DNA of 64,000 nt from a virus (IMGVR_UViG_3300025164_000635:31305-95304); one strand, 5' to 3'; shown: positions 18,975 through 26,987, counted from the stretch's first letter. Translations and numbers: made by a program. The notes: a model not told the origin generated them from the sequence alone.

Positions 18975-19036
18975 CGCAGAGAGGGGCTAGGCCATAGGCT
19001 TAGCTCTAATGCGGCATACCGGTCTCAAGCCCGGTA
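18975..19036 (+). ncRNA. Twister ribozyme, circularly permuted (P1 closed by a loop)
   Basis: CGCA-GAGAG-[GGGCTAGGCC ata GGCTTAGCTC]-TAA-TGCG-GC-ATA-CCG-GTCTCAAGCC-CGG. P1, P2, P4, T1 (CTC/GAG) and T2 (GC/GC) are all satisfied; predicted cut U19007^A19008. Confidence 0.85.
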
Positions 19037-19065
19037 AACCCATGTCGCATAAAGGAGAAAGAGTC

Positions 19066-19257
19066 ATGCGTACAGTTATCCAGGACCGGGTAGCTTCAGA
19101 AGCTACTCGGAGAGCATACGAACGTATGATGGAGAGCAACCCAAGACCCAGCTACCAGCCTCAGTCTGAGGCCGAAGCCTGGAGACAGGCGTGGATCTCA
19201 GGCAAGGTCAGCCTAGGGGATGTCCCGGCTCGCTATCGCTCCCTCGTTGCTCGCTAA
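19066..19257 (+). CDS. Hypothetical early protein
   Basis: AAAGGAG RBS, start 19066. Confidence 0.6.
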   Translation: MRTVIQDRVASEATRRAYERMMESNPRPSYQPQSEAEAWRQAWISGKVSLGDVPARYRSLVAR

Positions 19258-19263
19258 CAATCG

Positions 19264-19365
19264 AATATCTGCCTTCTTCCAGGAAGGCAGAGCAGGCTCA
19301 TTCTCTCGGAGGAGGATGGGCCTGCTCTGCTTTCTGGGACTAGAGCCCAGAGCAGAGAAAAGGAG
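19264..19365 (+). ncRNA. Repeated structured leader element, copy A
   Basis: Three hairpins ending in TCTGGG-ACTAGAG-CCCAGA, then GCAGAGAAAAGGAG. Confidence 0.7.
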
Positions 19366-19372
19366 AATCACC

Positions 19373-19567
19373 ATGACGTACCCGAAAGGCTACACCAACG
19401 ACTACGCTACCATCTGGGAGCAACGCATGAGCAAGGCCATCGGCCTGCACCTACACTGGCTGACTGAGGCATGCTACCAGGCCGCTCTTTACAGCGACCG
19501 CCTCACCATCCAGGCTCAGGTCAAGCTGGGCAAGCTCTACATGGCTGCCAGCAAGGGCGGCAAGTAG
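19373..19567 (+). CDS. Hypothetical early protein
   Basis: AAGGAG RBS, start 19373. Confidence 0.6.
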   Translation: MTYPKGYTNDYATIWEQRMSKAIGLHLHWLTEACYQAALYSDRLTIQAQVKLGKLYMAASKGGK

Positions 19568-19572
19568 TCGTC

Positions 19573-19672
19573 AATCTACTTCTGTCTTCCCCTCCGGGAA
19601 GGCAGAGGCTTGGGTATCACGGTATCCAAGCCTCTGCCTTTCGGGACTAGAGCCCGAAGCAGAGAAAAGGAG
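19573..19672 (+). ncRNA. Repeated structured leader element, copy B
   Basis: Same three-hairpin layout; TTCGGG-ACTAGAG-CCCGAA (stem sequence differs but pairing kept). Confidence 0.7.
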
Positions 19673-19678
19673 AAACCC

Positions 19679-19948
19679 ATGTCTCACAAGATCATCTTCG
19701 TGCTGGTGCTGGTCGGGCTGATGCTGGCCTTCACGGCCTGTGATGCCTCGAAAGAGGCAGGCTGGACGACCTCCTGTATCCGGGAGTACAAGGCCGCCAA
19801 CGATGGGGCTGATCCGGATGCGGACACACTCAAGGCGTGCGTTGAGGCCAAGAGAGATGCTGCTGAGTCTCTCAACAAGACACTCAATCAGGGCAAGCAG
19901 CAGGCCGAAGCCCTGGTTGCTACACCCGTCCCTGACCCCAATAAGTAG
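19679..19948 (+). CDS. Small lipoprotein
   Basis: MSHKIIFVLVLVGLMLAFTA-C lipobox. Confidence 0.65.
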   Translation: MSHKIIFVLVLVGLMLAFTACDASKEAGWTTSCIREYKAANDGADPDADTLKACVEAKRDAAESLNKTLNQGKQQAEALVATPVPDPNK

Positions 19949-19965
19949 CAAGCTATAGACAACCA

Positions 19966-20072
19966 AATATCGCTTCACCCCTGCTCCCTCATGGGAGCAG
20001 ACCAGAGCCACTCTCCTGCGAGGGCGGCTCTGGTCTGCTTCTGGGACTAGAGCCCAGGCAAACAGAAAGGAG
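19966..20072 (+). ncRNA. Repeated structured leader element, copy C
   Basis: Same layout; CTGGG-ACTAGAG-CCCAG, then AAAGGAG. Confidence 0.7.
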
Positions 20073-20080
20073 TAGTAGCC

Positions 20081-20575
20081 ATGTTACACAATCCGTTGTT
20101 CTGGTTCTGTGTTGCAGCTCTGCTTGTTGCTATCCATGAGCTGATCGTCCGCAATCGCAACCCCTTCTACGAGCTGGACTTGCGGGAGTATTACGAGCCG
20201 AGCTCCCAGGAAGGGGATGAGTGCCCCATCTGCGGTGTCATGGGCGGGCACGATGCCGAGATATGCACGGGTGATGAGTATGCCGGCGTGTGCCGTGAGG
20301 ACTTCTATGTCCAATTCGGCAACACCCCAGAAGTTCGGGAGCTGTATCACATCTGGGTCTCTGAGGCTAATGTGGAGTTCCGCTGGATGGTCATGGATAT
20401 GTGCGGCATGTACGGTGCCTCCGAGACCTTGGGCCGCCTCCGGGAAGCCATCAACGAGGAGCGGCCTCTCGACTTGCCATCCAGCAAAGAGATGCACCGC
20501 CGCATCCTCCGGGCTTGCCCCGATCCCGACCTCGCCCGCGGTATGGGTGAGGAGACCCTCTACAGAGTGCGATAG
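20081..20575 (+). CDS. Membrane-anchored protein with CPIC...H...C zinc motif
   Basis: N-terminal TM segment; CPICGVMGGHDAEIC. Confidence 0.6.
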   Translation: MLHNPLFWFCVAALLVAIHELIVRNRNPFYELDLREYYEPSSQEGDECPICGVMGGHDAEICTGDEYAGVCREDFYVQFGNTPEVRELYHIWVSEANVEFRWMVMDMCGMYGASETLGRLREAINEERPLDLPSSKEMHRRILRACPDPDLARGMGEETLYRVR

Positions 20576-20583
20576 GAGGAACA

Positions 20584-21003
20584 GTGGATAAGTATGTACG
20601 GGTCCGTCTGACGAGCGCTAGCCTCTTGGCGCAGTCAGATCCCTTCCCAGTGTTGTTGTGGTACGACGCCAGGAAGCGGGCCGTCCACCTGAAGGTCATC
20701 TCCAGCGCGGGTGGGCGGTATGACGTGCACCTTCGGTTCCAGGTGCACGAGGGCAAGGCTTACCTCATGGATCGGATGTGCTTCTGTGAGGACTTCGAGT
20801 CCTCGATGAAGCACTTCGACATGCTCCAGGAGCTCGGGATGCCGGTTGAGGGGAGTGCCTTGCCTCTCTATCGGGGCCTGCCCATCTGCAAGCACATCCT
20901 GCTCGGCGGTCTGAAGGTGATCGCCGAGAACTGGGTGGCCCTCTTCCTGGATGGGCAGCCGCAGGCTAAAGCCTTCCAGGAAGATGAAGTCCTGCCGTTC
21001 TAG
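20584..21003 (+). CDS. SWIM-type zinc finger protein
   Basis: CFCEDF...ICKHIL (CxC...CxH); GGAGG RBS. Confidence 0.65.
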   Translation: MDKYVRVRLTSASLLAQSDPFPVLLWYDARKRAVHLKVISSAGGRYDVHLRFQVHEGKAYLMDRMCFCEDFESSMKHFDMLQELGMPVEGSALPLYRGLPICKHILLGGLKVIAENWVALFLDGQPQAKAFQEDEVLPF

Positions 21004-21172: not shown

Positions 21173-23575
21173 ATGTCGTTCACGTCATTTCGCTCTACCC
21201 GTAAGGTGGTTGTGGTGGACCGCTTCGGGCGACCCACCGGAGAGGAAAGGATTCTCTCTAACAGCCCGATCGACGCCCTGTTCCCTGACGAGAAGATCGT
21301 CATGGTGAACTGGAAGTACGAGGGCGCGAAGGCGCCCACCGCTGAAGAGTTGCGCCGGCCGATCCGCCACGGCGGCAACGAGTACCGTGGTGACTGGGCC
21401 TGGGGCAGCAGCGTCAAGCGCGGATACACTGTGGGCCTGACCCGTGACCTGCTGGTGGACACGGGATTGCTGAACTGCTGTGAGGACGCCCACCGATTCG
21501 GTCGGGCGTTCCTTGCCAACGGCCTGTATGGGGCCGGGAAGGGTGAGCTGCACATCAAGTTCGTGCCCGAAGGGACTCAGACCCTGGCCGGCCCGGTGGC
21601 GGACGGCTTCGGGTATGTGAGACGCTCGGTGGCCGAGAAGATGAATGCCGGACACGACAAGATCAAGTTCGGCACCGCGCGCGACTCGTCGCACTGGTGG
21701 CAGCGCATTCCCTGGACATCCGAGATCCAGGAAGAGCTGGAGCCGCTTCTGCGTGACAACCTGGTGGAGGCTGGTGACCCCGGGTTGTGGATGTTGAGGC
21801 AGTTAGGCGACCGCGATCAGGGTCGCCGCCACCTGGTCGAAGCCGAGCCGTTGATGGCTGAGCACCCGTATGTGGCGAACATGCTCATGAGGGTGTCCTC
21901 AGACATCCTGGCCCGGGCGGCCACGACGGTCCCCCTGAATCACGCGGTGAAGGTTACTGTGCCCGCGAACGTCCCCAACATCGCTGTGGACGGGAAAACA
22001 CTGAGCACGCGCTACCCGATCGATGCCAAGAACTCCATCCGGGCGAACAACAACACGCTCAACACCGTGGAAGCCGAGATGGAGCGGATTGCCGAGATGG
22101 AGCGGATTGCCCAGATGGAGGTCATTCAGTATGGCATGACCTCCATGGGTGACCATCCCTTCTCGGCTAAAGGCTGCGCCGGGATCGTTGACGATGATCT
22201 CCTCGATGCCGACTTCGTGTTGTGCACGAAGGACATCAAGATGGGTGACAAGAAGTTGGTGGACATCAAGGCGGAGATCGTGGTCTCGGTGACCCAGTGG
22301 TTTGCCCAGGGCGAGGCGGTCGGTGTGAATACGAAGTTCTGGGCCGACCAGGGCGGTGATTGCGACGGCGATCTGGCGTTGATCGCCGATTGCAGTGAGT
22401 TGCCCCGCCTGTGGGAGGCGGTTAGCGGGTTTGGGCTCCAGCCCACGCCCAAGCTCATCAAGACTCACACGAAGCTGGAGGACGAGGACATCCGGGGTGA
22501 GTTGGCTGAGAAATCCATGCTGAATGTGGTCGGCATGGCAGTCAACCTCATGGCTGCGACGTTTGTCACGGCCAACCGGGAAGAGATGGCCCACCGCCTG
22601 GGCTATGCGAGTGAGGCTGCCCTGGATAACGCCCTGAATTACTGGGTGAAAGCAGGCACGGATCTCTTCAAGGTGTCTGTCGACACCAAGCAGCTCATGC
22701 AAGATCTCTCTCGGTTCCAGAGCAAGCTGGTCAATGTGCTCGGTACGCTGCCGCCGTGGGTGAGCTGGCCCAACGACTGGGCCTTCACGCACGGCGTCCC
22801 GTCCTTCTGGAACGAGGACGAGATGGGTCACCTGAAGAGCGACGATCCTGTTCGGAAGAATGCCGTTCCTACCAATTCCTGGTACGACGGGACCATCGTC
22901 CAGATCATGAGGCTGACCCTGCTCGCCCTCAGCGCGATGCTGAGCCATACCCTGGCTGTGCGGCCGCTGCATGACTTCCAGAGATGGGCCCTGGTTGTGC
23001 CGGACAGTGTTCTGGGGCCCGCGATCGGTCTCCAGAAGATGTTCGTAGCCGAGTCCCAGCGCGTCAACTGGGAGTGGCCCCAGGATGTCGTCCGCTTCAG
23101 CCAGTGGTGGGCCGAGAAGGTCGCCACCTGGAAGAACGAGATGGGCCTGGATGACACCCTAGCCTGCGCTGCTATCTGGCGCGCGGCCCATGACATGCGG
23201 AGCAAATACGCCGGGGCGTCGTCTGTGTTCATGGCCTTCCCGGAAGAAGTACTGGATATTCTCCGGGATAAGCCCGGCCTCTCCAAGTTGGTGTCTGGTG
23301 TCATCCTCGGCCTGCCCGAAGTGACCGAGGAGACGGTCATCCAGGGCACCGTTCGGGAGTTCAAACGCAAGGACTCACAGTCCGGCCGGACCGTCATCCG
23401 CAAGTGCTTGGTGGACGGTAACTCGGGCCTACCCCATATGCCCGACATCAACTACCCGGGCGCGATTGCCGTCTTTGCTTCGGATCACCCGTCGCCCGAG
23501 AATGGGCTGAAGGTGACCGTCAAGGTCACCCGGCGCACCAAGAAGTCCTGGTTCGCTGATTGCATCTGCCAGTAG
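21173..23575 (+). CDS. Single-subunit double-psi-beta-barrel RNA polymerase (YonO / RdRP-like)
   Basis: 800 aa; ADGFGYV (aa 144), RYP (280), SAKG (333), catalytic GGDCDGD (396-400). Confidence 0.75.
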   Translation: MSFTSFRSTRKVVVVDRFGRPTGEERILSNSPIDALFPDEKIVMVNWKYEGAKAPTAEELRRPIRHGGNEYRGDWAWGSSVKRGYTVGLTRDLLVDTGLLNCCEDAHRFGRAFLANGLYGAGKGELHIKFVPEGTQTLAGPVADGFGYVRRSVAEKMNAGHDKIKFGTARDSSHWWQRIPWTSEIQEELEPLLRDNLVEAGDPGLWMLRQLGDRDQGRRHLVEAEPLMAEHPYVANMLMRVSSDILARAATTVPLNHAVKVTVPANVPNIAVDGKTLSTRYPIDAKNSIRANNNTLNTVEAEMERIAEMERIAQMEVIQYGMTSMGDHPFSAKGCAGIVDDDLLDADFVLCTKDIKMGDKKLVDIKAEIVVSVTQWFAQGEAVGVNTKFWADQGGDCDGDLALIADCSELPRLWEAVSGFGLQPTPKLIKTHTKLEDEDIRGELAEKSMLNVVGMAVNLMAATFVTANREEMAHRLGYASEAALDNALNYWVKAGTDLFKVSVDTKQLMQDLSRFQSKLVNVLGTLPPWVSWPNDWAFTHGVPSFWNEDEMGHLKSDDPVRKNAVPTNSWYDGTIVQIMRLTLLALSAMLSHTLAVRPLHDFQRWALVVPDSVLGPAIGLQKMFVAESQRVNWEWPQDVVRFSQWWAEKVATWKNEMGLDDTLACAAIWRAAHDMRSKYAGASSVFMAFPEEVLDILRDKPGLSKLVSGVILGLPEVTEETVIQGTVREFKRKDSQSGRTVIRKCLVDGNSGLPHMPDINYPGAIAVFASDHPSPENGLKVTVKVTRRTKKSWFADCICQ

Positions 23576-23578
23576 CAT

Positions 23579-23790
23579 AGGTTCCGAGGCCGATCTTCGG
23601 ATCGGCTCTCGGCTTCTGGGTAGGTGAAAGCCCATCCAGAAGCCGGGAAGGAACTTACCTTCTCTAGCGTGGAGTCTCACCACACTCTCCCTCCCACGGG
23701 GCACGGCAGCCTACTTCCGGGCTACCGCCGTCTTCCCCCTGGGGCTAACGCCGCACTAAAGCTCCGAGAGGAAGCAAACTCCTATAGGAA
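23579..23790 (+). ncRNA. Structured intergenic RNA candidate
   Basis: TAGGTTCC/GGAACTTA closes a UUCG hairpin and a long GAAA-capped hairpin; further nested stems follow. Confidence 0.45.
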
Positions 23791-23802
23791 AGGTGGTGTA
23801 GC

Positions 23803-24126
23803 ATGTCCAAGTTCCTGAACCGTGACGTTGACCTGAAGGCGAAGGTCGCTGGCAAGCCCGGTACCGGTACGCCCGGCCCGCGGCAGCCCGTAGCCACGAC
23901 CGACATCAACGTGACGCAGCTCGAGGCGTTCGCGGCCAAGCTGGAAGCGACGTACCCCAAGCTGGAGCCCAACGACCGCGCCATCGCCAACAGCATGAAC
24001 CCGGCGACGGGCAAGGCCAATATCCTCCTGGCCGGCATCAGTCGCGCCCGGGGTGACAAGGCCAGCGTGACCGTGTACAGCACCGGCCGCGTTGTCTGGG
24101 CGGGCGTCCCCGCGTTCACTCTGTAG
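23803..24126 (+). CDS. Hypothetical protein
   Basis: 107 aa, strong codon bias, GAAAGGTGG RBS. Confidence 0.65.
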   Translation: MSKFLNRDVDLKAKVAGKPGTGTPGPRQPVATTDINVTQLEAFAAKLEATYPKLEPNDRAIANSMNPATGKANILLAGISRARGDKASVTVYSTGRVVWAGVPAFTL

Positions 24127-24191
24127 CCCACAGTGGAGGGGTCCGACATAGGGCCCCTCCCCCCCCACCCTTTCCTGGAAGGAATCGAACC

Positions 24192-24302
24192 ATGAAACTC
24201 AGCCTGTCCGAACTCATCCTACTGGCCGCTGGGTTGCTTGCAACGGCTACATCTGGCTATCACTCCAGCCCTGGGTCACTGGTGATAGCCATCATCCCCT
24301 AA
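24192..24302 (+). CDS. Small hydrophobic peptide (36 aa)
   Basis: GAAGGA RBS; MKLSLSELILLAAGLLATA... Confidence 0.4.
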   Translation: MKLSLSELILLAAGLLATATSGYHSSPGSLVIAIIP

Positions 24303-24314
24303 CAACATGGCTAT

Positions 24315-24353
24315 GGAGCCGGTGCCCGCGGCGGGTGCCGGCTCCCCTCTTTT
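24315..24353 (+). terminator. Rho-independent terminator
   Basis: GGAGCCGGTGCCCG-cgg-CGGGTGCCGGCTCC followed by CTCTTTT. Confidence 0.55.
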
Positions 24354-24354
24354 G

Positions 24355-25345
24355 AACAGGTGCCCTGAGAGCAGCCCCAGATGACGGGCGGGGTATTAAA
24401 GCAGGCCAAAACCCTCACCCCGATGACCGTTCCAAATATCATCCCAGGCTGCTCTTAGGGAATCTGTCCTTAAAAAGGCAACAGGCTCTCGCATGAGGGT
24501 CACCCAGGGGCACACCAGGGGCCCTGAAGGGGTGCAATCCCTGTGGCCCGTTGGAACTTCCGGGAAGTACACGGTGGTAGAACGGGCGTTCTATTGAGGC
24601 GGGACTGAGTAGGCGTCGGCAGATTATGAGGGGAGTCACCCTGGAGCGGGCTCTCACGAGTCGTGACGTGAGTGGTGCCGTGCGGACTGAACGTGAGGTG
24701 GCCCGTGCGGACTGCCCTCATAGTCTGCCGAGGCGGACACAGTTCTGCCACGGTGGGGTGGAAGGCCCTGCGGGGCGTGCATGCGCTTGAATCATGCAGC
24801 CGGCAAGTAATGGCTAGAGTAGCCTCTGGTCCCGTGATCACTATGCGGGGAAAGGCAGGCTTGAGCAGGGAATGCGTGCACGCGCCCTGTCAAGGGAGTT
24901 CTGCCGGGCGTGTCTCTAACCCTGGGCACGCAGCACAATCCTAAGCCGGACTTTGAGGGCCGTGATGGATGGTGGGGGAGAGGCCGGGAAGAGTCTATGA
25001 CCGCCGGTGTTTCGGCACCAGGGCGACGGGCTCTTCCTGGCTGGCTCCCATGACCTGTTTCTCTCATGTGTCCGATGGCCGAGAAGGGCTTCAAGGCAGG
25101 CAGTGGAGGCGTGTGGACGATAATTCCTACGCTGGAAACTGCCGTCACAGTTAGGTTCGTGTGACTACGTGGCCGGCTGTGGCCGAGTGGACTGGTCATC
25201 CACTCGTAATGTGCGGGTTCGACTCCCGCCAGCACGCTTTCATGAGCAGTATAGACGCTTTTTGGTTTGAGGCTATCGGGCATTCATACTGGCCTCAAAC
25301 CCAAACGGGCGATCTATCCTATTGTTTCGGCAATGGGATAGTGAG
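24355..25345 (+). ncRNA. Large ornate non-coding RNA, GOLLD-like candidate
   Basis: ~1 kb with no credible ORF, many long G-U-containing nested stems and two T-loop-like hairpins. GGCAGTGGA...ATAAT...AAACTGCC block resembles the GOLLD 3' domain as I recall it. Confidence 0.6.
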
Positions 25346-25379
25346 ATAAGGAACACATTGCCTGGAAGGGAGGCAACCG

Positions 25380-25592
25380 ATGAAGAGACGTGTCGTCATC
25401 AGAGGGCAGCCTATGAAGTACATCGTGAAGTACATCAAAGACCCAGTAAGGGACAGGCGAGGGGAGCCGCCCTACCGAGCCCTCATTGACGGGGAAGAAT
25501 GTGGCGAGTGGAAGCGAACCGCCATACAAGCGAGCACTGAACACGATCGGATTGTGGCCGAGAAGGCTGCAACCAAGATAAAGGAGGCATGA
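25380..25592 (+). CDS. Hypothetical protein
   Basis: GGAGG RBS, coupled operon. Confidence 0.55.
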   Translation: MKRRVVIRGQPMKYIVKYIKDPVRDRRGEPPYRALIDGEECGEWKRTAIQASTEHDRIVAEKAATKIKEA

Positions 25593-25834
25593 TGTACACC
25601 ACAACGACATTTCCACCCATCTTTCAGCACGGCCCAGTGTCCTCGACCATGCAGTTGCACGTGCCTACCAGCGGCTATGGCCGGAGTGTCGCCATCGTCC
25701 GAACACTGCACAACGGATCGGTCACCCACGAGTATCTGCCGGAATTCCTGGCCGAGCTGGTCGTCGCCATGATCCCGTTCGACGAGCCACTGGTCGCGTC
25801 GGTGAGGATCGCCTACTCGGAGATGGGACAATGA
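25589..25834 (+). CDS. Hypothetical protein
   Basis: AAGGAGG RBS, ATGA overlap. Confidence 0.55.
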   Translation: MMYTTTTFPPIFQHGPVSSTMQLHVPTSGYGRSVAIVRTLHNGSVTHEYLPEFLAELVVAMIPFDEPLVASVRIAYSEMGQ

Positions 25835-26267: not shown

Positions 26268-26273
26268 ATGGCC

Positions 26274-26382
26274 GGGAAGATGACCTTCCCTGGGGGTGAG
26301 CGGATTGGACTCCCTAAGCCATTGAAGGTTGGCTGCGGCCAGCCGGACGAGGGTTCGACTCCCAAGCGGTAACTCCCCACCA
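26274..26382 (+). ncRNA. Degenerate tRNA-like element
   Basis: GGGTTCGACTCCC T-arm, long variable-arm hairpin GGTTGGC-tgcg-GCCAGCC and 3' CCCCACCA; cloverleaf imperfect. Confidence 0.4.
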
Positions 26383-26479
26383 AGCGGACGTCCCGTGGCG
26401 GTGTACGGCCCATGACGTGGCCGTGAAGACCGGACAATCGGGACGTTCGCTTTGTGGGCATTTTCTTCCGAGGTGAAAC

Positions 26480-26791
26480 GTGGAAGTCTCTACCTATAAC
26501 GGTACCATTCGGATCCAATTCAGTGAGGGCAGCAAACGACACCAATGTATCCTCACCATCATGCTTGAGGACGGGAAACCCATTGTCACCAGTGGCCGAG
26601 GAGTGTGGCCGGGAAAGGAACGCCTGGCGGCCATTGATAACAGTGAATTGCAGGACTTCCTGGACAAGCTACAGGCCAGCACCGAGAAGACACTCAAGAT
26701 GGCCGACCTGCGCCAGATACTGGCCAAAAGCGAACCGTTCTTCCAGGTCCAGGAGTCCAGGTCGTCCGCGAACCGTGCCAATCGCTTCTAG
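26480..26791 (+). CDS. Hypothetical protein
   Basis: GAGGTG RBS, GTG start. Confidence 0.55.
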   Translation: MEVSTYNGTIRIQFSEGSKRHQCILTIMLEDGKPIVTSGRGVWPGKERLAAIDNSELQDFLDKLQASTEKTLKMADLRQILAKSEPFFQVQESRSSANRANRF

Positions 26792-26836
26792 GCGGAAGGG
26801 GCTGCGGCCCTGAAAGCAGTAGGTTACCCGAACCTG

Positions 26837-26875
26837 CGTCTTCTAAACGTTTCGCCGCGAAACGTTTAGAAGACG
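26837..26875. repeat. 39-bp palindrome containing parS-like copy 2 (26848-26864)
   Basis: CGTCTTCTAAACGTTTCGC-C-GCGAAACGTTTAGAAGACG, perfect 19-bp arms. Confidence 0.85.
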
Positions 26876-26987
26876 AAACGAGTGAAGTAGGGAAGCTGAA
26901 CCTGTAAAGAGCCCTGAGTGGCTGCCGCCGATGAAGGAAGGGGGATGGAGAAATCCATTCCCCTTTGCCTTTTGTATGAGGTGAGAC

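What the first reader, a model, noticed from the sequence alone, without database searches (positions are those of the whole stretch)
24355..25345. ~1 kb ornate non-coding RNA, GOLLD-like or new
Seen: long nested helices with G-U pairs on the + strand. Examples are CCCTGAGAGCAGCC/GGCTGCTCTTAGGG, TCGGCAGATTATGAGGG/CCCTCATAGTCTGCCGA, GCGGGACTG/CAGTTCTGC and GGCCGGGAAGAGTC/GGCTCTTCCTGGCT. There are T-loop-like hairpins (GGGTGCAATCCC ~24529, GGGTTCGACTCCC ~25215) and no credible ORF. Known: GOLLD and ROOL are giant phage-associated RNAs, often near tRNAs. Inference: a divergent GC-rich GOLLD or a new giant RNA. The GOLLD resemblance rests on my recollection of the GGCAGTGGA...ATAAT...AAA block.
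Basis: partly seen in the sequence, partly recalled or inferred. Interest (0 to 1): 0.75.

Follow-up and report, generated by a model that had tools for sequence, protein, structure and literature searches.

The report
Orphan 1 kb structured phage RNA
A 1 kb gene-free stretch of a soil and groundwater phage, probably of Chloroflexota, folds into long RNA helices on one strand only, matches no known RNA family including GOLLD and ROOL, and has no relative in the data searched, so it is a credible but unconfirmed new large phage RNA.

Summary
Window 24356-25355 has no credible ORF, and all four quoted helices are present. Folding is far stronger on the + strand: MFE -475 vs -398 kcal/mol, 52 vs 19 G-U pairs, and 0 vs 7 A.C single mismatches. 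Eight coding controls differ by 37 kcal/mol at most.

The region is modular. Four stretches are strongly structured (z -4.9 to -8.1): 24356-24467, 24591-24756, 24976-25049 and 25056-25355. The linkers between them are not structured. The 3' module holds a tRNA-like element (Rfam tRNA 19 bits, below the cut-off of 29).

The GOLLD reading is not supported. No Rfam family matches, even at E<=10: not GOLLD, ROOL, OLE, YrlA, introns, RNase P or tmRNA.

I found no homologue anywhere, so covariation could not be tested. I searched phage records, IMG/VR by DNA patterns, loci of related phages, and about 970 Chloroflexota genomes. The RNA sits at a variable site downstream of the phage's YonO-like RNA polymerase gene, and relatives hold nothing or a protein-coding moron there.

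The only outside lead is a 36-nt, 92% match between the tRNA-like part and a Y RNA-like unit next to a Ro60-like gene in one Chloroflexota genome.

Verdict: a real + strand RNA structure and an orphan. Its function, and whether it is one transcript, are unknown. The same stretch was noted once before in this scan, in an overlapping window of the same genome.

The parts
24315..24355 (+). Terminator-like hairpin (14 bp, 11 G-C) followed by CCTCTTTTGA. It marks the upstream boundary of the RNA region.
   Evidence: sequence. A 13-nt deletion variant at 24321 appears in one run.
24356..24467 (+). Module 1: a 112-nt branched hairpin closed by a 20-bp helix (ACAGGUGCCCUGAGAGCAGCC / GGCUGCUCUUAGGGAAUCUGU).
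   Evidence: MFE -50.4, z -4.9 on + and -4.7 on -. Helix probability >0.87. Model R1 finds no second copy.
24484..24590 (+). Linker with small hairpins, including GGGTGCAATCCC (24530-24541). It is not significantly structured.
   Evidence: z -1.1 on +, +0.7 on -.
24591..24756 (+). Module 2: a 166-nt rod of 18 bp and 23 bp helices separated by internal loops. Its branched tip holds a 24-nt tandem repeat (24666-24689 / 24691-24714).
   Evidence: MFE -97.1, z -8.1 on + and -5.8 on -. Helices; repeat D1. Model R3 finds no paralogue or homologue.
24757..24905 (+). Module 3: a 149-nt, weaker multi-helix hairpin. Its apical loop carries the palindrome GUGAUCAC (24834-24841).
   Evidence: z -2.6 on +, -1.5 on -. 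Loop palindrome listed.
24976..25049 (+). Module 4: a 74-nt hairpin with a 15-bp helix (4 G-U) and a UUCG-capped tip.
   Evidence: MFE -47.2, z -5.3 on + and -3.8 on -.
25056..25355 (+). Module 5: a 300-nt multi-branch domain. It is closed by a predicted 24-bp interrupted helix (25056-25084 with 25325-25355) and contains hairpins at 25099-25143, 25144-25183, 25184-25206, the T-arm, and 25251-25317.
   Evidence: MFE -128.9, z -5.9 on + and -4.0 on -. Helix probabilities 0.71-0.98.
25176..25280 (+). tRNA-like element. It has a perfect T-arm (GCGGG-UUCGACU-CCCGC, 25213-25229) flanked by D-arm-like words on both sides, an 8-bp hairpin with a 7-nt loop (25184-25206), and a weak closed 'acceptor' hairpin (25230-25249, with two A.A mismatches).
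   Evidence: Rfam tRNA 19 bits against a cut-off of 29. ARAGORN finds no tRNA. Window 25209-25244 matches a YrlA-like unit in G341:C136 at 92% over 36 nt.
25358..25379 (+). Ribosome-binding leader of the next gene (ORF 25380-25592). It resembles the leader at 24171-24191 (16 of 21 bases) and marks the downstream boundary.
   Evidence: Direct repeat D3; translation.

Best explanation
The stretch 24356-25355 encodes non-coding RNA read from the + strand, the strand of all neighbouring genes. It has no detectable relative.

It is built as a chain of four strongly folded modules joined by loose linkers. The last module carries a tRNA-like element.

Shown: there is no coding signal, and the helices are maintained at the RNA level on the + strand. 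The evidence is many G-U pairs and no A.C mismatches on that strand, with the reverse pattern on the other strand.

Inferred: the RNA is made during the middle phase of infection, either by read-through of the upstream terminator or from an unrecognised promoter of the phage's own RNA polymerase. I infer that the tRNA-like element is then recognised by host tRNA-handling enzymes (RNase P, RNase Z, the CCA-adding enzyme), or acts as a Y RNA/tRNA mimic. Either would define an end of the RNA or tie up a host factor.

The rod-like modules would act as a stable scaffold or decoy, not as a messenger. This last step is a guess. Nothing here shows what the RNA binds.
For: No coding signal: flat GC1-3 in every internal ORF against strong GC3 excess in real genes; no Pfam hit for any internal ORF and no PHROG hit for the 163-aa ORF, the only one scanned there.

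Structure above chance: z -5.2 for 895 nt, and per-module z -4.9, -8.1, -5.3 and -5.9.

Strand specificity: MFE -475.2 (+) vs -397.5 (-), 52 vs 19 G-U pairs, and 0 vs 7 A.C 1x1 mismatches. Eight 1-kb coding controls differ by <=37 kcal/mol and hold 26-41 G-U pairs on either strand.

Boundaries: a terminator-like hairpin lies immediately upstream and an RBS leader immediately downstream.

tRNA-like element: Rfam tRNA 19 bits aligning acceptor, D-arm and T-arm. A 36-nt, 92% match covers a T-arm, closed acceptor and loop of a YrlA-like unit next to a TROVE-like gene in a Chloroflexota genome. This was the best of 274 T-arm contexts compared.

Relatives of the phage's RNA polymerase lie in Chloroflexota MAG contigs. 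YrlA tRNA-like domains are known substrates of tRNA enzymes, and M. smegmatis YrlA is cut by RNase P (PMC4201824).
Against: There is no homologue and therefore no covariation. All support comes from one sequence and thermodynamic prediction.

There are no RNA data. No sigma-70-like promoter lies in the region, and a strong terminator sits just upstream, so transcription itself is inferred.

Module 1 folds equally well on both strands.

The relatives closest by RNA polymerase lack the region at the same site, so it is not a conserved part of this phage group.

The tRNA-like fold competes with a predicted helix, 25144-25151/25176-25183, with probability 0.97. The element fails the Rfam tRNA and YrlA cut-offs, and the phage has no TROVE gene.

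Other intergenic regions of this phage are also highly structured. Structure may therefore be a general feature of its transcripts rather than the mark of a dedicated RNA gene.
Confidence: 0.6

Rival explanations
1. The region is not a free-standing RNA gene. It is a long structured leader or spacer of the downstream operon (ORF 25380 onward). On this reading it is a run of hairpins serving as RNase III or other processing sites, stabilisers or anti-termination elements, like the intergenic hairpins of T7-type early transcripts.
For: Other intergenic regions of this phage are also strongly folded on the + strand: 19051-20850, 23597-23750 and 26268-26480. One holds a twister ribozyme, so RNA processing between genes is evidently used here.

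The region is modular, with unstructured linkers, and runs without a terminator straight into an RBS. A predicted pairing links 24340-24349 with the RBS region 25365-25374.
Against: At 1 kb it is five to ten times longer than any other intergenic region of the window. Relatives express the same flanking genes without it. Rods of 18 and 23 bp plus a tRNA-like element are more than processing sites need.
Confidence: 0.22
2. The region is decaying or selfish DNA with no present function. Candidates are remnants of a tRNA or Y RNA-like gene cluster, or hairpin-forming miniature mobile elements dropped into a variable 'moron' site.
For: The site is variable. L004 holds nothing there and L053 holds a low-GC protein-coding insert. 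The flanks carry a 21-nt imperfect direct repeat (24171-24191 / 25358-25378). The tRNA-like element is imperfect, and a second T-loop word lies 1.1 kb downstream. One Chloroflexota genome has an ~860-nt array of tRNA-like units of similar overall size.
Against: The absence of A.C mismatches beside 52 G-U pairs on one strand argues for continuing constraint on RNA pairing. Helices of 15-23 bp are not tRNA-like. No second copy exists in the phage. No copy was found in about 970 Chloroflexota genomes searched by BLAST or 300 searched by covariance model, as a mobile element would predict. Copies from 20 sequencing runs are identical over the parts their contigs cover in the four runs laid.
Confidence: 0.12
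3. The region is a very divergent member of a known large phage RNA family (GOLLD or ROOL) that the Rfam models fail to recognise.
For: It shares the general setting described for those families: phage-encoded, about 1 kb, many helices, and a tRNA-related element beside it. GOLLD and ROOL are encoded in phages and prophages, 'often near tRNA islands', and tRNAs sometimes sit in the GOLLD linker (bioRxiv 10.1101/2024.12.08.627333).
Against: There is no GOLLD or ROOL match even at E<=10 with permissive filters. GOLLD has a universally conserved 3' region, which should score if present. The predicted architecture is a chain of separate hairpin modules without the multi-pseudoknot core.
Confidence: 0.03

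Closest known systems
GOLLD RNA (Rfam RF01998) and ROOL RNA (Rfam RF03087)
   Same: Phage-encoded, very large (about 0.6-1 kb) and helix-rich. No known protein partner is encoded beside it. A tRNA-related element is adjacent (features of GOLLD and ROOL as described in 10.1101/2024.12.08.627333).
   Different: There is no sequence or structure match to either covariance model. No true tRNA genes are in the window. The predicted fold is a string of independent modules. The host lineage is probably Chloroflexota, not Lactobacillales, rumen or marine sources. No family of relatives exists for it.
YrlA-type bacterial Y RNAs (Rfam RF02553), tRNA mimics bound by Ro60/Rsr
   Same: It has a perfect T-arm followed by a short closed stem-loop, a 'UA', and a D-arm-like stretch with GG. 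That is the order T-arm, acceptor stem-loop, D-arm described for YrlA (PMC4201824). It also shares 36 nt at 92% identity with one YrlA-like unit of a Chloroflexota genome. YrlA-like RNAs are known from phages.
   Different: There is no YrlA model hit even at E<=10. The 'acceptor' stem has two A.A mismatches. No Ro-binding stem was identified and the phage has no TROVE/Ro60 gene. The element is embedded in a 300-nt module of a 1-kb region rather than being a ~110-nt RNA.
tRNA-like processing signals at the end of long non-coding RNAs (mascRNA of MALAT1, Rfam RF01684)
   Same: A tRNA-like element sits near the 3' end of a long structured transcript, which could recruit RNase P or RNase Z to define an end.
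   Different: The match is at chance level (13.3 bits, E 6.7). That system is eukaryotic, and no cleavage has been shown here.

Membership tests
GOLLD (RF01998) | Match to the family covariance model, in particular the universally conserved 3' region | tested here: not met
   No hit at gathering score or at E<=10 on 23800-25800 and 25040-25400.
GOLLD (RF01998) | Encoded in a phage or prophage, often beside tRNA genes | tested here: inconclusive
   Phage context is met: terminase and helicase hits and an IMG/VR virus record. No true tRNA is in the window, only a sub-threshold tRNA-like element.
ROOL (RF03087) | Match to the family covariance model (multi-pseudoknot core) | tested here: not met
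   No hit.
OLE (RF01071) | Match to the family covariance model | tested here: not met
   No hit.
YrlA / bacterial Y RNA (RF02553) | Match to the family covariance model | tested here: not met
   No YrlA hit at E<=10 in a 361-nt scan. The same model gives 24-40 bits on the units of L063.
YrlA / bacterial Y RNA (RF02553) | T-arm, then closed acceptor stem-loop, then D-arm, with tRNA-like invariant bases | tested here: inconclusive
   The T-arm is perfect. The stem 25230-25249 has 5 pairs and two A.A mismatches. The D-arm-like stretch 25253-25274 holds GG (reading). There is a 36-nt, 92% match to L063 unit 731-801. A competing helix is predicted with probability 0.97.
YrlA / bacterial Y RNA (RF02553) | Encoded next to a Ro60/TROVE gene | tested here: not met
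   PF05731 finds nothing in the 95-kb phage record at E<=1, while the controls respond.
tRNA (RF00005) | Complete cloverleaf scoring above the family cut-off, or found by ARAGORN | tested here: not met
   19 bits against a cut-off of 29, with only 12 nt where the anticodon arm should be. ARAGORN finds 0 genes.
Group I/II introns, RNase P RNA, tmRNA, 6S RNA | Match to the respective Rfam models | tested here: not met
   None is listed at E<=10. No reverse transcriptase is in the phage.
attP site carrying a tRNA 3' end | An integrase in the phage and identity to a host tRNA 3' end | tested here: not met
   No PF00589 hit in the record. The matches in Chloroflexota genomes are not tRNA genes.

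The most novel reading that the evidence does not exclude
This is the founding member of a new class of giant phage RNA. It would be a single ~1 kb transcript of a Chloroflexota phage that carries its own RNA polymerases. Its rod modules would assemble into a higher-order particle or scaffold, for example through palindromic loops such as GUGAUCAC at 24834-24841. Its Y RNA-like tRNA mimic would capture a host RNA-surveillance or tRNA-processing factor such as Ro60/Rsr or RNase P during infection.
Probability: 0.12. Interest if true: 0.85.

Novelty: new variant of a known kind. Interest (0 to 1): 0.5.

Why it matters
Very large structured RNAs of phages (GOLLD, ROOL) are few, and their functions are still unknown. 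Each new and unrelated example broadens the search for what such RNAs do.

This one comes from an unusual setting. The phage is linked to Chloroflexota and carries a YonO-like RNA polymerase, a twister ribozyme and many folded intergenic elements. The RNA carries a tRNA-like element that may be related to Y RNA mimics.

If it is expressed, it would give a handle on RNA-based host takeover in a poorly studied phage-host system.

At present it is a single sequence without relatives. Its value is as a well-defined candidate for RNA-seq, probing and cryo-EM, not as an established family.

Tried and rejected
Known families: Rfam at gathering score over the window, at E<=10 on three sub-regions, and on 19 related loci. 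Nothing relevant came up except Twister-P5 elsewhere in the window.

tRNA/tmRNA: ARAGORN found none in the window or in relatives.

Homologue searches, all negative:
- blastn against 50,697 phage records.
- The phage's own genome, which gave only the self-match.
- Four IMG/VR DNA pattern scans built on the tRNA-like element. The first two returned only ordinary tRNA or tmRNA genes of unrelated phages; the last two returned nothing.
- blastn and nhmmer against all loci of RNAP relatives.
- Three single-sequence covariance models (R1-R3) over 259 kb of loci. The best foreign hit scored 22 bits with many broken pairs, on the opposite strand inside a likely coding region, and I judged it chance.
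- BLAST over 401 + 401 + 169 Chloroflexota genomes.
- R3 and R1 over 151 genomes each.

Two further BLAST hits (L096, L097) lie in or at the edge of coding sequence and were judged chance.

Synteny: relatives found through the RNA polymerase do not carry the region at the same site.

Neighbour gene ORF81: it has close relatives in nine IMG/VR contigs, but these share only that 50-aa module.

Sequencing runs: 20 DNA runs hold the stretch. The four laid showed only identical copies over the RNA, so there was no natural variation to test pairing. No RNA holder was listed.

Promoter hunt: there is no sigma-70-like site. AATATC-type words and shared 9-mers in intergenic regions gave nothing convincing.

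Replication origin: the cumulative GC-skew minimum lies near 19-20 kb, not here.

Retron, DGR or group II intron: no reverse transcriptase. attP: no integrase.

The 86.8-kb contig that carries one of the closest RNAP relatives (P0002, 40% identity) could therefore not be examined.

One genome among those searched (G149) is unpublished. No claim here rests on it.

Full report
**What the window is.**
The window is bases 31305-95304 of a 95.3-kb IMG/VR virus record rated complete. It encodes a large terminase subunit, a helicase and a DNA repair protein.

An 800-aa protein at 21173-23575 has nine relatives that share an invariant G.D.DGD motif, read as a YonO-type single-chain RNA polymerase.

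Genes from about 18.5 kb onward are read on the + strand. Near-identical copies occur in soil, sediment and groundwater metagenomes. Relatives of the polymerase gene lie on contigs of Anaerolineae and Chloroflexia MAGs, so the host is probably a member of Chloroflexota.

**Checking the observation.**
They are recovered as high-probability helices in a partition-function fold: 20 bp at 24356-24376/24447-24467, 18 bp and 23 bp forming a rod at 24591-24756, and 15 bp at 24982-24996/25028-25042.

Overall, 285 pairs have probability above 0.7, and 39 of them are G-U.

ORFs inside the region (54-163 aa, both strands) have equal GC content at all three codon positions. Eleven real genes of the phage have GC3 0.63-0.89 against GC2 0.40-0.51. 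None of the internal ORFs hits Pfam, and the 163-aa ORF hits no PHROG family. The region is therefore non-coding.

**Is the structure more than chance, and on which strand?**
- For 24356-25250 the + strand folds at -430 kcal/mol (z -5.2) and the - strand at -362 kcal/mol (z -3.4) against dinucleotide shuffles.
- For 24356-25355 the + strand fold has 52 G-U pairs and no A.C single mismatch. The - strand fold has 19 G-U pairs and seven A.C mismatches. The energy gap is 78 kcal/mol.
- Eight coding stretches of the same length differ between strands by at most 37 kcal/mol and carry 26-41 G-U pairs on either strand.

A DNA palindrome decaying by mutation should show G.T and A.C in equal measure. 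The one-sided pattern is what selection on + strand RNA pairing produces. I take this as the strongest evidence available from a single sequence.

**Anatomy.**
| Stretch | Length | z on + | z on - | Note |
|---|---|---|---|---|
| 24356-24467 | 112 nt | -4.9 | -4.7 | strongly folded |
| 24484-24590 | 107 nt | -1.1 | +0.7 | linker |
| 24591-24756 | 166 nt | -8.1 | -5.8 | strongly folded |
| 24757-24905 | 149 nt | -2.6 | -1.5 | intermediate |
| 24906-24975 | 70 nt | 0.0 | +1.1 | linker |
| 24976-25049 | 74 nt | -5.3 | -3.8 | strongly folded |
| 25056-25355 | 300 nt | -5.9 | -4.0 | strongly folded |

The first 'T-loop' (GGGTGCAATCCC) sits in the 24484-24590 linker, so it is only a sequence resemblance.

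The region begins right after a terminator-like hairpin (24315-24345 plus a T-run). It ends at the ribosome-binding leader of the next gene. No sigma-70-like promoter lies inside it.

Long-range pairs closing the whole kilobase are predicted (24340-24349/25365-25374 and 24476-24480/25359-25363). They are short, and I do not rely on them.

**The tRNA-like element.**
Rfam's tRNA model aligns 25176-25233 at 19 bits (cut-off 29). It places an acceptor stem, a D-arm and a perfect T-arm, but only 12 nt where the anticodon arm should be. ARAGORN calls nothing.

The fold prediction prefers other partners for the 5' part: 25144-25151/25176-25183 (probability 0.97) and an 8-bp hairpin at 25184-25206.

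A BLAST search of 401 Chloroflexota genomes gave one notable match. Window 25209-25244 is 92% identical over 36 nt to G341:C136:735-769. That locus holds an ~860-nt gene-free stretch with three or four units. In each unit a T-arm is followed by a closed acceptor hairpin and a D-arm. The acceptor strands are complementary: CAGCCGC/GCGGCTG, CGGCCCG/CGGGCCG and CGATGGA/TCCGTCG.

Rfam's YrlA model scores these units at 39.6, 30.1 and 24.4 bits, below its cut-off of 69. The same model also gives sub-threshold hits in unrelated control genomes.

The next gene in that locus resembles solved TROVE-domain proteins (E 7e-6) and has a weak vWA signal. This is the arrangement described for bacterial and phage Y RNAs (PMC4201824).

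The window's element continues to resemble that unit beyond the T-arm, through 'UA' and a GG-containing D-arm-like stretch. However, its acceptor stem has two A.A mismatches, and the YrlA model does not score it at all. The phage has no TROVE gene.

The margin was modest: 55 against 46 and 41. I treat the Y RNA connection as a lead, not a finding.

**Known families.**
Rfam 15 gives no match to GOLLD, ROOL, OLE, raiA, HEARO, introns, RNase P, tmRNA or 6S. This holds at the curated scores and at E<=10 with permissive filters.

GOLLD is described as having a universally conserved 3' region (10.1101/2024.12.08.627333). Nothing of the kind is detected here.

**Relatives and synteny.**
Polymerase relatives (33-41% identity) were collected from IMG/VR, JGI metagenomes and GTDB genomes.

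The small gene just upstream of the RNA (23803-24126) is conserved in them. What follows it differs:
- In L004 the next gene follows directly.
- In L053 there is a low-GC protein-coding insert with its own promoter.

The RNA therefore occupies a variable 'moron' site. Some relatives have their own strongly folded non-coding stretches nearby, for example L016:9648-10145 at z -5.2. These show no similarity to the window's RNA by sequence or by model.

A T-arm-like hairpin preceded by GGCCGG recurs just after the RNase H gene in L008, L009 and L051.

**Homologue search.**
None of the following found a relative of the kilobase:
- blastn of phage records.
- Four IMG/VR pattern scans.
- Model searches of all loci.
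- BLAST of about 970 Chloroflexota genomes.
- Model searches of about 300 Chloroflexota genomes.

The contigs laid from four of the 20 sequencing runs that hold the stretch are identical to the window over the RNA. Covariation, the standard test for a structured RNA family, could therefore not be applied.

**Interpretation.**
The best-supported reading (about 0.6) is a genuine + strand structured non-coding RNA region without known relatives. I infer that it is transcribed with the middle genes and that its tRNA-like element engages host tRNA-handling or Y RNA-binding factors.

The rivals are:
- A long processed leader of the downstream operon (0.22). This is favoured by the general abundance of folded intergenic elements and a twister ribozyme in this phage.
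- A functionless remnant or selfish insert (0.12). This is disfavoured by the G-U/A.C asymmetry and by the lack of other copies.
- A divergent GOLLD or ROOL (0.03).

A replication origin, attP site, retron or intron are excluded by GC skew and by the absence of an integrase or reverse transcriptase.

**Verdict.**
'New large RNA' is plausible but rests on one sequence.

It is a good candidate for RNA-seq, probing and cryo-EM. It is of moderate interest now, and would be of high interest if a discrete transcript or a family is found.

Noticed in passing
window 18975-19034 (+): A type-P5 twister ribozyme lies between two early genes. It scores 50 bits in Rfam against a cut-off of 37.6 (E 2e-07).
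   Followed up: partly
window 19264-19365, 19573-19672, 19966-20072 (+): Three gene leaders share one layout. Each has the invariant word GGGACTAGAGCCC (at 19336, 19643, 20043) inside a stem, after two hairpins of differing sequence and before AAAGGAG-ATG. No Rfam family matches them at gathering score.
   Followed up: partly
window 26268-26480 (+): A second gene-free, folded stretch of 210 nt (z -3.1). It holds another GGGTTCGACTCCC word (26351-26363) and ends in ...ACTCCCCACCA, like a tRNA or tmRNA 3' end with an encoded CCA. Neither Rfam nor ARAGORN calls it.
   Followed up: partly
window 26832-26884: A near-perfect long palindromic hairpin (TCTTCTAAACGTTTCGC / GCGAAACGTTTAGAAGA). It matches on both strands, so it is more likely a DNA site. 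It overlaps one of the parS-like palindrome copies (26848) that another reader listed.
   Followed up: no
window 25688-25822 (ORF 25589-25834): A 50-aa module of this small gene is shared at 75-81% protein identity and 76-84% DNA identity with nine IMG/VR contigs that share nothing else detectable with this phage (L042-L050). It also recruits extra contigs in the metagenome runs.
   Followed up: partly
L053:11751-14220 and L004:4498-4550: The site after the conserved small gene (orthologue of 23803-24126) is variable among relatives. L053 holds a low-GC protein-coding insert with a sigma-70-like promoter, and L004 holds nothing.
   Followed up: yes
L063/L065 (G341:C136) 394-2760: A Chloroflexota genome has an array of three or four permuted tRNA-like (YrlA-like) units. 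It lies directly upstream of a 501-aa protein that resembles solved TROVE-domain proteins (9l5y, 9kop). Each unit is preceded by a repeated word CTCTTTCGACTTGCACG.
   Followed up: partly
L016:8475-8900; L054:2690-3380; L051:3600-3700; L053:11200-11270: Relatives carry short words repeated in their intergenic regions. L016 has GTGTGACTGTTG-hairpin-CAGCGGCTACCC twice. L054 has GGGCGTTAGCCC..ATACGCCTCCA four times. L051 and L053 have GCTAACGC repeats. These may be promoters of the phage RNA polymerase.
   Followed up: no
window 24278 and 24321: In single metagenome runs a contig carries a 14-nt insertion behind 24278, inside the 36-codon hydrophobic ORF 24192-24302. Another carries a 13-nt deletion at 24321, inside the terminator-like hairpin.
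   Followed up: no
L031:6036-6096 (-): An unrelated IMG/VR phage has a miniature tRNA-like element with acceptor strands GGGGCUUGG / CCAAGCUCC followed by ACCA, including a G3.U70-type pair. No tRNA or tmRNA was called there.
   Followed up: no
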